Below are positions 35,570 to 45,625 of a stretch of DNA of 64,000 nt, in pieces. Position 1 is the first letter of the stretch. Every line of letters begins with the position of its first letter. The notes below the pieces were generated by a model that worked only from the letters and a program-made list of their open reading frames with translations, had not been told where the DNA came from and ran no database searches. The translations under genes were made by a program, and so were the position numbers. The DNA is taken from contig CDROCS010001076.1 of assembly GCA_977020255.1 (NCBI GenBank), positions 186,001 to 250,000 on the forward strand, written 5' to 3'. Source of the stretch: Obrimoposthia wandeli. Its lineage: Eukaryota.

Positions 35570-35881
35570 AAATACTAGGTCATGACCTTGACTTTAAAAT
35601 CATACGTCATTTAAAAAATTATAACCTTAATTGAGAATGACCTTCAGAAATCGACTGAAAACACCCTAAATCAACCGAAATTTGAATATGCACCAGTCAA
35701 AATTGGTGCATTTAAACAAAATTTAGCTTAAAATAGACCTACTATAATACATATTGACCTTCAAATGACCTTGACCTTAAAATATCATGTGTACTCAGGA
35801 GAAATTTGACCTTGACCTTGACCTATATCTGGCAAATTTAAAAAAAACAATTGAGTTTTAGCTAGAGGGGGACCTTTTACT
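35570..35881. mobile_element. Candidate Polinton right terminus (...GGGGGACCTTTTACT)
   Basis: TGACCT array and TCATGTGTACTCAGG motif shared with the terminus at 45625; ends in ACT. Confidence 0.6.
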
Positions 35882-36469
35882 TTGATTCGAAGTCATCACT
35901 TAATTCTTTAATAATTCTTTAGATGTGTCAGCCTGGGAAAAACTTTGATATAAACTTTCACATAGAATAGTGTGTGTATTATTACGTAATACATTATTTA
36001 ACTCATAAGAGTGAACTTTATCTTTCACATAGAATAATTGATTGATTACTATAGATGTGTTTGGTACTTTAATATTTTATTTCAAAACCTGTTAAATTAA
36101 AATTTGTTTTAATTAAATAATATCTAACAAATTAAATTGACACAAGTATTTTTATTTTCCCACCAGGAAATCTTAATTTTATTAAACAAAATTGTTTAAT
36201 TACATTAATAAAATGAAATAAAAATTTGCGTAAATTTAAATATTTATAAAAAAAAAAATAATACTGTTAGTAAAGTAATTTGAGTTTATTAACATTTTCC
36301 TTAATATTTATTTAAAATAATGTTACTTTAATATTTTTAAAAATTCGTTAAATTAAATTTGTTTAACTTTAAGAAAAACTAACAAAATAATTTGGCACAA
36401 ATTAAAATTTAAAAATATATTATTTTTTAAAATTACAAGTATTTTTATTTTTCACCTGGACCTCTTATA

Positions 36470-37158
36470 GTATGCATGACCTTAAGGGTTTATTTGAACT
36501 CAATTTTCATAGACAAATACAACCATGTAATAAAATTGTCATATTTCTTCCAAATCTGACCCTTAACTTGTGGAAGACCATAAAATTTTTACATGATTAC
36601 ACTCGTAATATGTTGACAAATACAACCATGTACTCTAAATTTTTAAATTCCAATTTTTTTAACCCTTCATCTATGGACAACCATACCTTTATGGATGAAT
36701 TCGTCTTCTAAAGATGATTCCAACCATGTATTCAAACCTTGACATTTAAAACTTGATTTTGTCTTTAGCCGACCCTTGATTTATGACCGACCATGAACTT
36801 TTAGATGTGATGGTCAACCATAGTAGACTTTAATTATACCTTCAAACATTCAAGTCTAAACTGACCCCGACCCTTTCATCTATGGTCAGTCACAACACTT
36901 TAGAAGTGTTGGTCAACTATACATGGTCATGGTCATACCTTCAAACCTTCAAGTCAAAACTGAGTCCGACCCTTTCACCTTTGGACGACTCCAACCCTTG
37001 TTATGTTGGCCGTCCATAGACGGTCACAACCATACCTTCAAACCTTCATAACCTTTCTGAGCCAGACCCTTATGGTGTGGCAAGACACCCCTATGGTGAG
37101 GCAACATATAACCTTATAGTGTGCACACACAAGGGGGGCCCTCCCAGTGGTCTAGACT
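36470..37158. mobile_element. Second candidate terminus (...CCAGTGGTCTAGACT) with ~100-bp subterminal repeats
   Basis: ATACCTTCAAAC...CCGACCCTTTCA units at ~36836, 36936, 37033; abuts and truncates the PZ ORF at 37159. Confidence 0.45.
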
Positions 37159-37444
37159 TCATCAAATTACCTACTGCAGTCAATAGTTGAGTAGCAGCTT
37201 TTGTTGCTTCAGGCAACAAACCTGGTACTTCACTAATTGCATTTGATTTTAGTTGACTCAAAATTGGTTTATCGTTCATTACTACATTTGTAAGTTTTTT
37301 TGCACCAATTCGTCCTAAATGTGATAGTATAGGAAACGCAATTCGCCCCAAAATTTTCAACCAACCTGAACCATATTGTTTTCTAACAAAGTAAGGTAGT
37401 TCACCACCCGTTTGGGTTGTACTATACACATCAAATAGAGACAT
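37159..37444 (-). pseudogene. Polinton C PZ-like protein, 3'-truncated
   Basis: TQTGGELPYFVRKQYGSGWLK. Confidence 0.8.
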
Positions 37445-37464
37445 TATTAACGATTAACATTGTT

Positions 37465-42076: not shown

Positions 42077-43099
42077 AAGAAACTTTCGAGAAAAAAAACA
42101 ATAGACTCAACTTGACAATGATAATCAAAATCTTTAATACCATGAATGATCGGTTTTCCACTAGCAAACACATTAACACATAGATGATTAAACTTTAAAT
42201 TCTGAGTGCTGAAAACAATTCTGGTTCAAACATACAAAATTTAAAATCTCTAAAAATTGTGTATGATCATACTAAATTACATAAACAATAAACTAGAAAA
42301 ATAAATTCAAAAAATTCTTACATTTTTAGAATGTGAAATTTATTTAGAAATATAAAAATATAAAATATAAAATATTTAAACTTATAATTTGATAATTTAG
42401 ATTCGTTAGAATTTTACAAAACTTTTAAAATCTGTTAAAGCCAAGTAAAATATAGTAATTAGGCTTAGGCTTAAGGTTAGAGTTGATGGTGGATATATGC
42501 ACAATAAAATACTTGGTCATTGATAAGTTTTTTCATTGAATTTGAGAACTATTTTCATTGATTTTCATAAGTATTAGGATATGAGATTACCAGTCATGTA
42601 ATTAAATGAGAATAATTAGTACTATACGTTTTTCTCATATATACTGATATATCGATTCTTAATATAGACATAATCTTTTCAATTAACTTGCATATGTTTT
42701 CAAATACTTGCACAATCAGAACACACACATATTTACATACATTTATGTTCAAATATAGACATGTACACATACACCAACTCTCCTTGTTCTTGTCATCAAC
42801 TTAGAAACGTGCAATATTTTGCAAGTATTTGCATCAACCAATCAGAACATGCAAATCTTCACATATATTTATATGCAAATATAGACATGTTCACCAACTC
42901 TCCATGAAATTATCTTAACTACCGCATTATTTTTTAAACTTCTTAACAACCGCGAGATTATCCTCTAACTATCATAAAATTATTCTAACTGCCAGGATAT
43001 TTCTTAAACTTCTCTATGAGATTATTTCCTAACCACCTAAATATCGTAAATTTCCTGAATATATCCTTAATTTCTCCCATCATAGATTTCCTGAACATT

Positions 43100-44200
43100 T
43101 CATTAGTTTCTATAATTCTCATAGATTTTCTGAACATATATCTTCTAGAAGCATTCTATAATCTCTAGCAAAAAGAATTGGATAAAAGTCTTCTAATATC
43201 ATATAATTCATCCAAAATACTTATATCTACAAATGAGCAGCTTCAATCCTCCTATTTCTTCTTCTAATTACCCAGTTACCTAATTAAAATCTCCAATCAT
43301 TAAAAATTGGGACACAACCTAAAGATTGTTAACATCAGTGTACGAAATAGTAATCAGAGTTAGTAATCTTATGTTGATTGATAAATGTTATTCCTCCATG
43401 AATTATTCAAACAGTATACCGGGAAGAATTCCATGGTAGATTCTAGCTGTAAGGATATGAAAGCCCACGCAATCCTATGATAATATCTTATCTGGAATAG
43501 ATGAGAAATTGAGAGTCATCGGTTGTATTCTTGTTGTAAACACATCTGTATCCAATAAATCAATTTAAAGAGACTCATACTTTCTCCACCATATTGTTCG
43601 CATTTTGCTGGAAGTTATTGATTGGAAAACAGTCTCTGATATCGTCATATGGACTAAATTTTCATTAAGACTACTAAACTGAATCAAATACACACTCCAT
43701 CAATATGCTCTGTTCCCTAAATTTCTCCTCTAGAAGAATCTAAATATTGTAAATTTCCTTAACATATCATGAATTTCTAGAATTATTATAGATTTTCCGA
43801 ATATATCATTAGTTTCAACCAATCCCCCATTTCTTCTAATTGGTGAGGTTGAGACAAAGATATTCCAACTTTCTCCCAAATATTGATCTTCAAATTTGTT
43901 ATCACAGGATGATAAACTTTCAGATTACTGAAGACCACCTATGTGGTAACAAGCTCACATAATTTCGTAATAGCACAAATTTCTTCTATCAATAAATTTC
44001 CCTTGTTAATTTCTATCTCCTAGATATTTTCCTGGAATTACTTCTCTAATATCATAAATTTCACCTGAATAATTGATTCATTTGTCTTCTAAACTATCTA
44101 AACATCTCTAATTTTGTTAATTTCTCTTCATCCCAATAATATCTCCTCTGAAGCATATTCTAAATTGTTAATATCTATGCCTTCCAACCATGATCACAAA
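43100..44200 (-). mobile_element. Highly degraded LTR-retrotransposon pol-like relic
   Basis: Faint RT-like fragments (LNENL...DCFPI) only. Confidence 0.3.
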
Positions 44201-44499
44201 CAAATAAGCTATCAATATTAAACCAATAGTTTCCAGCAAACATCAATACTTTTAGATCATAATATAAAACATATAGTTGTTATTATGATAAACAATATCG
44301 ATATGGAATTGAAAAAGTTAGAGATGTAATGTTTTATAATTAGATTTTATATATACCTTGTACATTTTTATGAGTATTGTATTCACACATGCACACACAC
44401 ACAATAGTCTCAATGTTCTATTTTCCATGTTCTATTCAATCAACTTATAAAATTTTGTAAGTATTCACACATGCACACATACACAATATTACTATAGTC

Positions 44500-45625
44500 T
44501 ATATATAACTTTGAAAAGCAGAAAAAATAAATTTTTCAAGGTTTGCAACCTTGAAGGTTTTAGAAGCATATTAAAGAATCAGCTCAAAGAACCAACTCTA
44601 CGAACTAGCAATAAGAACTTCCTTAAAAGAAGCTACTCAAAGAACTTCTTTAAAAGAGGCAACTCAAAGAACCTCCTTAAAATAAGCAACTCAAAAAACT
44701 TCCTTAAATGAAGCAGCTTAAATAACCAGCACAAAGAAGTACCATCAAGAGTGAGTAACCATGTGCTCATAGTCGTTGTCCTGAAAGACTCATGTACTCA
44801 GCAAGGAATGTTCTCATATGAAAAATTCACAGAGGACAAAGCTCATCATGTGTATGTATGTTGCAAACAGTTGCAAATACTTGTAAATCACACACTCACA
44901 TAATCACGTGATATTTTCATTTATCTGCCTTGTATTGGAGTGTGTGTACGGCTAATGGCAGCAGATGATGATGTAATAATCACATCAGTCTGTTAATGAA
45001 TTTTATTTATTTATGCAGCTGCAGTGCCAATTCAGGTGAGTTTTATTATTATTTTTATTCTGCTGCAGTATTTAGGTAAGTTTTTATTTTTTATTCTTCT
45101 AATATATGTTTGAGAGACCCAGCTGAAGGATAAATATCTATTGATTGTTGTCTTTCTATTGTGTTTTTCAAACATTATTTGATTAATATGTGTTTTAGAA
45201 AGCAATATACCTTTTAGCTTATATGATTGTCTTTCAAGACAAAGGCATGAACTCAAGGTCGGCACATAACCTTGAGCTCATGGTGGGTACATGAGCTCAC
45301 GTGATGAGTGAACTATAGAACAAAGGACATAACTTTGACATATCATGCGTACTCGGGAGAAATGCAACCTACTTGTGACCAAATATGATCTCGTGAGGTC
45401 AAATGACCTCGACCTACTTATGACGTAATGTGATCTCGTGAGGTCACATGACCTACATGTGACCTTGAAAAAAGTCATGTGTACTCGGGAAATTTTTGAC
45501 TCAAATGACCTTGACCTACATTGATGACTTCAGATGACCTTGACCTACATTTTGACCTCAACACGATCTTAATTTGTCCTCATACCCCCGGAGGCTTTGT
45601 TCCAGAAGTGCCACATCTACCTACT
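44500..45625. mobile_element. Polinton C right arm / TIR ending ...CACATCTACCTACT
   Basis: Reverse complement begins AGTAGGTAG and matches the TIR remnants at 5742/21976; CTCAAAGAAC and TGACCT arrays. Confidence 0.8.

What the first reader, a model, noticed from the sequence alone, without database searches (positions are those of the whole stretch)
35570..45625. Polinton termini are dense arrays of AGGTCA nuclear-receptor-type half-sites
Seen: ten exact TGACCT/AGGTCA hexamers in 45396-45558 (including two AGGTCA-NN-TGACCT palindromes and DR0 pairs) and eight in 35583-35824, mostly in the same orientation relative to the end. Extended forms are TGACCTTGA, TGACCTACAT and, in the 5742 TIR, AAAAGTAGGTCA. 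A TCATG(T/C)GTACTC(G/A)GG box is shared between families whose terminal bases differ. Established: TCAAGGTCA is the FTZ-F1/SF-1 site and AT-rich+AGGTCA is the ROR/HR3/E75 monomer site. Inference: these elements may couple transcription or reactivation to host nuclear-receptor (for example moulting-hormone cascade) signalling. Alternatively the arrays are integrase or replication-origin binding sites.
Basis: partly seen in the sequence, partly recalled or inferred. Interest (0 to 1): 0.7.

Follow-up and report, generated by a model that had tools for sequence, protein, structure and literature searches.

The report
Movable receptor-site module in Polinton ends
Near the ends of several virus-like jumping elements (Polintons) in what appears to be a flatworm genome sits a dense, movable cluster of the DNA word that nuclear receptors read; many normally inserted copies lack it, so it likely works as a host-driven on-switch rather than an insertion signal, and a moulting-hormone link is unlikely.

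Summary
The counts are right (10 and 8 exact AGGTCA/TGACCT hexamers, about 20-40 times shuffle expectation), but the two arrays are not the two ends of one element. They are same-facing ends of two Polinton end types (A, B) in a mosaic nest. Such arrays mark 59 of 60 A ends and 37 of 38 B ends sampled, with mixed spacings (DR0, DR4, DR5, IR0, ER4) and AP-1/CRE-like words. A related module lies inverted, outside the 100-bp terminal repeat and at one end only, in a third lineage (E). A fourth, abundant lineage (C) and many mini-elements with perfect target-site duplications have none. So the array is not needed for integration and is probably not the origin. The host's receptor set looks flatworm-like (FTZ-F1, TR, COUP-TF, two-DBD receptors; no EcR seen), so moulting control is unlikely. 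Best reading: a movable enhancer read by host orphan nuclear receptors (about 0.55). No binding or RNA data were available; an element-coded activator or packaging factor remains possible. Ten literature searches found no description in Polintons; this scan noted similar arrays earlier on other DNA.

The parts
45396..45558 (-). AGGTCA array of the A-type end: 8 inward and 2 outward exact hexamers, 68-230 nt from the terminus; two DR0 pairs, one DR5, two IR2
45602..45625 (-). A-type Polinton terminus (begins AGTAGG); its 24-nt pattern has 5,257 exact matches in the genome; no TSD partner found to the left in the window or the 10 kb upstream
45475..45489 (-). GAGTAC box shared by A and B ends (second copy 45343-45357); in 34 of 60 A and 17 of 38 B ends, 0 of 36 C/D/E ends
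45265..45395 (-). inner A-type end sequence with TGAGCTCA palindromes
42238..45264 (.). patchwork of non-coding repeat modules also found in other A- and B-ended elements; not shared by other copies of the adjacent gene block
37172..42237 (-). broken Polinton gene block of lineage W: TBP-like fragment (42094-42198), BIR (41531-42106), RING (40905-41528), ATPase (40214-40837), integrase (38635-39576), putative minor-capsid pieces
35902..37123 (.). intervening repeat DNA including a 99-bp tandem (36800-37048)
35577..35824 (-). AGGTCA array of the B-type end: 8 inward and 1 outward hexamers; DR0 triplet, DR0 pair, DR5, IR0; GAGTAC box at 35785-35799
34397..35901 (-). B-type Polinton end (other copies begin AGTAGT); this copy lacks about 9 terminal nt
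5742..5827 (+). short A-type end with one AGGTCA, joined to an integrase fragment; duplicated at 21976-22061

Best explanation
The arrays are a repeated, movable AGGTCA module in the end regions of several Polinton lineages that many normally inserted copies lack, and it likely works as an enhancer read by host orphan nuclear receptors (with AP-1/CRE factors) that would switch on element genes in particular cell types. Shown: the module is real, polarised, tandemly expanded, homologous between lineages A and E, can be inverted and moved out of the TIR, and is dispensable for integration. Also inferred: the output is transcription, for example of the acidic gene that starts about 400 nt from the module in lineage E. 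The arrays would grow and shrink by slippage and recombination, with selection keeping the hexamer.
For: Core fixed, flanks free: 985 hexamers fall in 143 flank contexts; across the 50 common contexts T stands at -3 in 68%. 613 of 669 A sites have TN(A/T) or NT(A/G) before the hexamer; 170 of 223 B sites have TNA. TNAAGGTCA is a described extended half-site (PMC5476932, passages). Mixed spacings DR0/4/5, IR0, ER4; schistosome TRalpha binds the half-site, DR0-DR5 and Pal0 (PMC2045677, passages). AP-1 words in 20 of 60 A ends (1.05 per end vs 0.18 shuffled) and CRE in 25 of 60 (0.57 vs 0.003). In lineage E the homologous module (66-81% identity to A ends, opposite strand) lies 400-650 nt in, beyond a ~100-bp TIR, at one end only in 4 of 9 TSD-bounded elements. 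Between left and right TIRs of 11 elements, hexamer sites differ at 0.025-0.032 vs 0.049-0.053 outside. The host encodes NR5A, TR and COUP-TF DBDs; no zf-C4 domain was found in the element ORFs scanned. Planarian Polintons are PIWI-repressed and desilenced during differentiation (PMC8532177, passages).
Against: No binding, reporter or RNA data. Lineage C thrives without the module (2,238 termini), as do 5 of 9 E elements, so it is optional. GGGTCA (3) and AGGCCA (3) are nearly absent against 548 AGGTCA in A ends, a stricter core than most receptors need (recalled), though AT-biased mutation could explain it. A, B and E modules share ancestry, so there is no independent convergence in this genome: 20 of 20 sampled DR5 clusters were Polinton-linked. 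The TIR comparison is open to alignment bias in tandem arrays. In the two full A elements examined the nearest ORFs read towards the ends, so the array is not their promoter.
Confidence: 0.55

Rival explanations
1. The module is read by an element-coded protein: either the element's own transactivator or a packaging factor, like the adenovirus packaging domain (redundant repeats near one end, between ITR and the first gene).
For: Lineage E copies the adenovirus left-end layout: ~100-bp TIR, repeat module at 400-650, first gene at about 1,020-1,060. The adenovirus domain is redundant, helically spaced, works at either end within 600 bp and overlaps the E1A enhancer (PMC5033970, passages). An 11-bp period dominates A arrays. 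The elements carry a TBP-like gene and several unnamed ORFs.
Against: Lineage C has ATPase, capsid and protease genes, near-identical copies and 2,238 termini, yet no array. The motif is an exact host-receptor word with receptor-type extensions and AP-1/CRE neighbours. No DNA-binding domain was named by Pfam in the ORFs scanned.
Confidence: 0.2
2. A neutral minisatellite: one ancestral AGGTCA-containing unit amplified by slippage and carried along with successful elements.
For: Local 45-bp and 29-bp duplications in the window; array structure differs even between the two TIRs of one insertion; all arrays share ancestry; AGGTCA tandems also arise in unrelated viral contigs, many looking like low-complexity coding repeats.
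Against: Hexamer kept in 50 distinct common contexts, lower divergence inside hexamers, retained in lineages whose polymerases are about 55% identical, flanked by a second known factor word.
Confidence: 0.12
3. Host receptors bind, but to repress or tether the element (COUP-TF/TR2-type silencing, nuclear positioning) rather than to activate it.
For: The host has COUP-TF and a TR2/4-like DBD (assigned by eye). COUP-TF binds the adenovirus left-end repeats without a packaging role (PMC5033970, passages). NR2C/F bridging of DNA ends is recalled, not looked up.
Against: AP-1/CRE neighbours and the position upstream of an early-type gene in E fit activation better; expansion of repressor sites is harder to explain by selection on the element.
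Confidence: 0.07
4. Integrase-binding sites or the replication origin.
For: In A and B the array lies inside both TIRs and reads inward (590 vs 79 in 60 A ends; 203 vs 20 in 38 B ends).
Against: 3 of 15 exact-TSD A elements have one end with 0-2 hexamers; two B minis of 251-255 bp have none. 6 of 8 E elements of 175-808 bp have exact TSDs and all 8 have 0-1 hexamer. 7 of 7 C pairs have exact TSDs and 0-1 hexamer in 3 kb per end. In E the module is inverted, outside the TIR and one-sided. Loss after insertion cannot be excluded for single copies.
Confidence: 0.04
5. Coupling to a moulting-hormone cascade (EcR/USP, HR3, E75).
For: WAWNTAGGTCA (ROR/Rev-erb-type, recalled) makes up 96 of 631 A sites; FTZ-F1 is present.
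Against: Two-DBD receptors, a CDGCRG P-box receptor and several TR-like DBDs point to a flatworm; EcR, E75 and HR3 are reported missing there (PMC8363021, passages). None of the five DBDs or DBD exons run against the PDB had EcR as best match. The other DBDs were read by eye only.
Confidence: 0.02

Closest known systems
Polinton/Maverick elements (adintoviruses); PMC8097293, PMC10748475, PMC8502044 (passages)
   Same: AG-starting ends, 6-bp TSDs, TIRs of 0.1-1.2 kb, pPolB, integrase, ATPase, protease, double jelly-roll capsid, IAP
   Different: The passages read describe only the terminal 6-bp end motifs and TIR lengths; no subterminal factor-site module. Here the module can lie inside both TIRs, outside the TIR at one end, or be absent.
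Adenovirus left end: E1A enhancer overlapping the packaging domain (PMC5033970, passages)
   Same: Protein-primed linear genome, ~100-bp ITR, redundant repeats a few hundred bp in, next to the first gene, bound by host factors including COUP-TF
   Different: The adenovirus repeats are TTTG-N8-CG, not AGGTCA; they are essential, whereas this module is optional; nothing here is functionally tested.
Nuclear-receptor sites carried by transposons, e.g. HNF4alpha sites in Alu (PMC3252374) and RSINE1-derived enhancers (PMC8240256) (search listing only)
   Same: A repeat family spreads receptor-type sites genome-wide (26,459 DR5 vs 209 control)
   Different: Those are retro-elements with few sites per copy; here about 6-10 perfect sites per end in a virus-like DNA element, apparently kept for the element's own use.
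Subterminal transposase-binding repeats of hAT/CACTA/foldback elements (recalled, not looked up)
   Same: Polarised short repeats near the ends, variable in number
   Different: Those are needed at both ends for transposition; these are dispensable, invertible and can be one-sided.

Membership tests
Polinton/Maverick | protein-primed family B polymerase and rve integrase | tested here: met
   PF03175 and PF00665 in an A-ended element; integrase in the window block
Polinton/Maverick | packaging ATPase, adenain-like protease, double jelly-roll major capsid protein | tested here: met
   Pox_A32 E 3.6e-6, Peptidase_C5 E 3e-4 (just under cut-off); model pLDDT 86.7 matches PBCV-1 capsid, E 7.6e-10
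Polinton/Maverick | TIRs starting AG and 6-bp target-site duplication | tested here: met
   exact 6-bp TSD in 18 of 21 A/B pairings, 7 of 10 E, 7 of 7 C
Polinton/Maverick | window 35570-45625 is one element bounded by a TIR pair | tested here: not met
   ends face the same way; no TSD partner; none of 10 other copies of the gene block matches beyond 42237
Nuclear-receptor response element | AGGTCA half-sites with receptor-type spacing or 5' extension above chance | tested here: met
Nuclear-receptor response element | host encodes receptors able to read such sites | tested here: met
   57 zf-C4 matches; best PDB matches SF-1, TR, COUP-TF
Nuclear-receptor response element | receptor binding and transcriptional effect | not testable with these tools
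   no binding assay; no RNA holder listed
Ecdysone-cascade element | host has EcR, HR3, E75 | tested here: inconclusive
   none recognised among the DBDs read; five checked against PDB without EcR as best match; one exon is nearest PPAR/Rev-erb, possibly E78; no tree built
Integrase/transposase subterminal binding repeats | required at both ends of inserted copies | tested here: not met
Adenovirus-type packaging domain | redundant repeats within about 600 bp of one end | tested here: met
   first hexamer median 60 (A), 111 (B), 358 (E) nt from the end; last median 410, 337, 601
Adenovirus-type packaging domain | needed for encapsidation, bound by viral packaging proteins | not testable with these tools
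   lineage C lacks the array despite a full capsid module, which speaks against a shared signal

The most novel reading that the evidence does not exclude
Animal Polintons carry a swappable nuclear-receptor/AP-1 enhancer cassette, the counterpart of the adenovirus E1A enhancer, that ties their activation to host differentiation programmes; in this genome it has seeded over 26,000 perfect DR5 sites, enough to rewire or titrate the host's receptor network.
Probability: 0.3. Interest if true: 0.72.

Novelty: new variant of a known kind. Interest (0 to 1): 0.48.

Why it matters
How endogenous Polintons are switched on is open. This gives a concrete, testable cis-element with built-in natural controls in one genome: inside both TIRs (A, B), inverted at one end (E), absent (C). 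It separates the module from integration. If host receptors read it, it would explain tissue-specific desilencing of planarian Polintons and make these elements the main source of multimeric receptor sites in this genome. The principle (viruses and transposons borrowing host factor sites) is known, which limits the surprise.

Tried and rejected
Cross-species test failed for lack of ends: 74 metagenome capsid loci plus 1 IMG/VR integrase locus had no 300-bp window with 3 or more hexamers, but none showed a recognisable terminus; inconclusive. IMG/VR capsid scan found no relative. IMG/VR motif scans: 2 loci with the ER4 word and 0 of the 80 listed triple-AGGTCA loci (of 120 or more) had Polinton proteins. 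No RNA holder listed; the four runs laid are one sample, contigs only, and merely confirm the boundary at 45625. ESM Atlas unavailable. The supplement of PMC8502044 gave 0 hits for three motif words; long cells are cut, so it may not hold the DNA; the supplement of PMC10748475 was listed, not searched. Kapitonov and Jurka 2006 and one guessed PMC id were not held. A bacterial promoter scan is irrelevant. PDB sequence search did not name the capsid; the fold search did. (28 ends, 338 inward vs 44 outward) left out the three array-poor A ends and the 0.7-kb element L115; two searches were not limited to that list and are used instead. The first hexamer-conservation statistic was biased by a one-sided definition and was replaced. 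I first read class E as an unrelated element; some searches showed it is another Polinton lineage, so it is not evidence of convergence.
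Full report
1. Observation. The hexamer counts are exact: 10 in 45396-45558 and 8 in 35583-35824, with a ninth at 35577, against shuffle means of 0.53 and 0.24 and maxima of 4 and 2 in 2000 shuffles each. Part of the count comes from local 45-bp and 29-bp duplications. Both arrays read the same way, and no inverted repeat joins them, so they are not one element's TIR pair.

2. What the stretch is. 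Comparison with genome copies puts an A-type terminus (AGTAGG...) at 45625 and a B-type end (AGTAGT... in other copies) at about 35901, missing about 9 terminal bases; both face left. Between them lies a broken gene block (37172-42237: TBP-like piece, BIR, RING, ATPase, integrase, putative minor capsid). None of ten other copies of this block matches the window beyond 42237, and one copy is bounded by array-less C-type ends with a matching TSD. No TSD partner for 45625 was found. The interval is therefore a mosaic in a nest of Polinton pieces, not one element.

3. The ends are Polinton ends. The A pattern has 5,257 exact matches in the 1.35-Gb genome, a strict B pattern 98. Exact 6-bp TSDs flank 18 of 21 A/B pairings. 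A-ended elements encode pPolB, integrase, ATPase and protease and a double jelly-roll capsid protein (model pLDDT 86.7; best match PBCV-1 capsid, E 7.6e-10). At least five lineages coexist, with integrases about 60-70% and polymerases about 50-60% identical.

4. Anatomy of the array. Within 800 nt of the end, 59 of 60 A ends carry inward AGGTCA (590 inward, 79 outward; shuffled 0.31 per end) and 37 of 38 B ends (203 and 20). About half of these ends were picked by likeness to the window ends and a few by a DR5 search, so the fractions are upper estimates. Interiors are empty: 1 hexamer in 27 kb of two full elements. Nearest-neighbour spacings, counting the A-only variant AGGACA, are DR5 161, DR10 92, ER4 49, IR0 39, DR0 31 in A, and DR0 52, DR5 22, IR0 15 in B. 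Genome-wide there are 26,459 DR5 against 209 for the reversed control and 6,505 DR4 against 362; 20 of 20 DR5 clusters sampled from the first listed contigs were Polinton-linked, judged by eye. The core is fixed while flanks vary: 143 contexts, 50 of them common, T at -3 in 68% of those. B sites are mostly TNAAGGTCA (170 of 223; TCA 95); A sites mostly TTA, ATG, TGT, TCA, GTG. AP-1 words occur in 20 of 60 A ends and CRE words in 25 of 60, far above shuffles, but not above chance in B. Hexamer positions differ between left and right TIRs of 11 elements at about half the rate of neighbouring positions (0.025-0.032 vs 0.049-0.053), a result open to alignment bias.

5. Lineage C (2,238 termini; full gene set) has 0-1 hexamer in 3 kb at each end of 7 of 7 exact-TSD pairs. 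Lineage E (15,282 termini) mostly has a TIR of about 100 bp. A module homologous to the A array (66-81% identity, opposite strand), with a TGACTCA word, lies 400-650 nt in, reads outward and sits at one end only in 4 of 9 TSD-bounded elements (one of the 4 was chosen for having it); 5 of 9 lack it. About 400 nt further in starts an acidic ORF without Pfam match, upstream of pPolB, the region where adintovirus 'Oncoid' genes lie (PMC8502044, section 8). Short E elements (175-808 bp) have exact TSDs in 6 of 8 cases and 0-1 hexamer; two B minis have none, and 3 of 15 exact-TSD A elements have one nearly empty end. The array is thus dispensable for integration, and being invertible, movable and one-sided it is unlikely to be the origin. 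Those are the properties of an enhancer, and also of the adenovirus packaging domain, which overlaps the E1A enhancer (PMC5033970, passages).

6. The host. The genome gives 57 zf-C4 matches. The DBDs include an NR5A with FTZ-F1 box (best match SF-1), a TR, COUP-TF, and by eye HNF4, RXR, TR2/4, NR4A, HR96-like, a second ESCKG receptor, a CDGCRG receptor and adjacent double DBDs. This fits the flatworm complement, in which EcR, E75 and HR3 are reported missing (PMC8363021, passages). I built no tree, so absence of EcR here is likely, not proven. Flatworm receptors do read such sites in vitro: schistosome TRalpha binds the half-site, DR0-DR5 and Pal0 (PMC2045677, passages), and SmFTZ-F1 binds an SF-1 element and a site that is repeated in its genome (PMC8673669, passages). 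Planarian Polintons are PIWI-repressed and desilenced during differentiation (PMC8532177, PMC10558129, passages).

7. Mechanism. Most likely (0.55) the module is an enhancer read by host orphan receptors together with AP-1/CRE factors, kept by selection on the element, expanded by slippage and swapped between lineages. Rivals: an element-coded activator or packaging factor (0.2), a neutral minisatellite (0.12), receptor-mediated repression or tethering (0.07), integrase/origin (0.04), moulting cascade (0.02). Against the best reading: no binding or RNA data, a successful array-less lineage, a core stricter than receptors need (GGGTCA 3 vs AGGTCA 548), and no independent origin within this genome.

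8. Novelty. Ten literature searches found no report of receptor-site arrays in Polinton ends; none of the 20 listed papers contains AGGTCA. The library lacks most subscription papers, and supplements were searched for one paper only. The cross-species test with metagenome loci was inconclusive. Earlier notes of this scan describe similar arrays in Maverick-like ends of two other genomes and in a Helentron; these are unchecked AI notes, not support. Host factor sites in viral ends and transposons are a known principle, so this is a new variant of a known kind, with unusually good natural controls.

Noticed in passing
L128:991-1386; window 42094-42198: Polintons here carry a TBP-like gene (PF00352, E 2e-12) beside BIR, RING and a dual-specificity phosphatase.
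   Followed up: partly
L250, L261 and other C-type ends: The array-less lineage C has a near-perfect ~170-nt palindrome just inside its terminus instead.
   Followed up: no
L091-L123: Left and right TIRs of single exact-TSD A elements are often only 74-92% alike and differ in array layout, suggesting ends are recombined between lineages rather than homogenised.
   Followed up: partly
L262:8268-9059, L274:8204-9049: The E-lineage ORF next to the module is acidic, low-complexity, with two YIDL repeats that resemble SUMO-interaction motifs (recalled); no Pfam match.
   Followed up: partly
L308:250-720; L469:280-380: A different 46-bp tandem containing ATATAGGTCA sits just inside some E-type ends; possibly a second origin of an AGGTCA array.
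   Followed up: no
L462: A 176-bp E-type mini-element is flanked by inverted rather than direct 6-bp sequences.
   Followed up: no
G000 genome: Three exact terminal patterns alone give about 22,800 Polinton ends, a very heavy load.
   Followed up: no
window 4542-8327 and 20776-24563: 3.8-kb duplication, 99.7% identical, containing a short A end, integrase and capsid pieces.
   Followed up: no
window 19674-19783: 30-bp tandem with AGGACA/AGGTCA words, apparently an inner piece of an A-type end.
   Followed up: no
window 34690-35250 and 45030-45090: GT..AG intron-like patterns and acidic exon-like stretches read towards both termini (seen by eye); unverified.
   Followed up: no
window 61991-62203: Hairpin with 91-nt arms, 91% complementary.
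   Followed up: no
window 15675-17066 and 59830-60258: RPA70-like OB-fold pieces and a BBS5 exon lie among the Polinton debris.
   Followed up: no
L114:743-1486: An ISXO2-type transposase lies inside a B-ended element with an exact TSD.
   Followed up: no
G000:C3:34390, 68067, 101744: An E-type end recurs at 33.7-kb spacing, suggesting a large tandem repeat.
   Followed up: no
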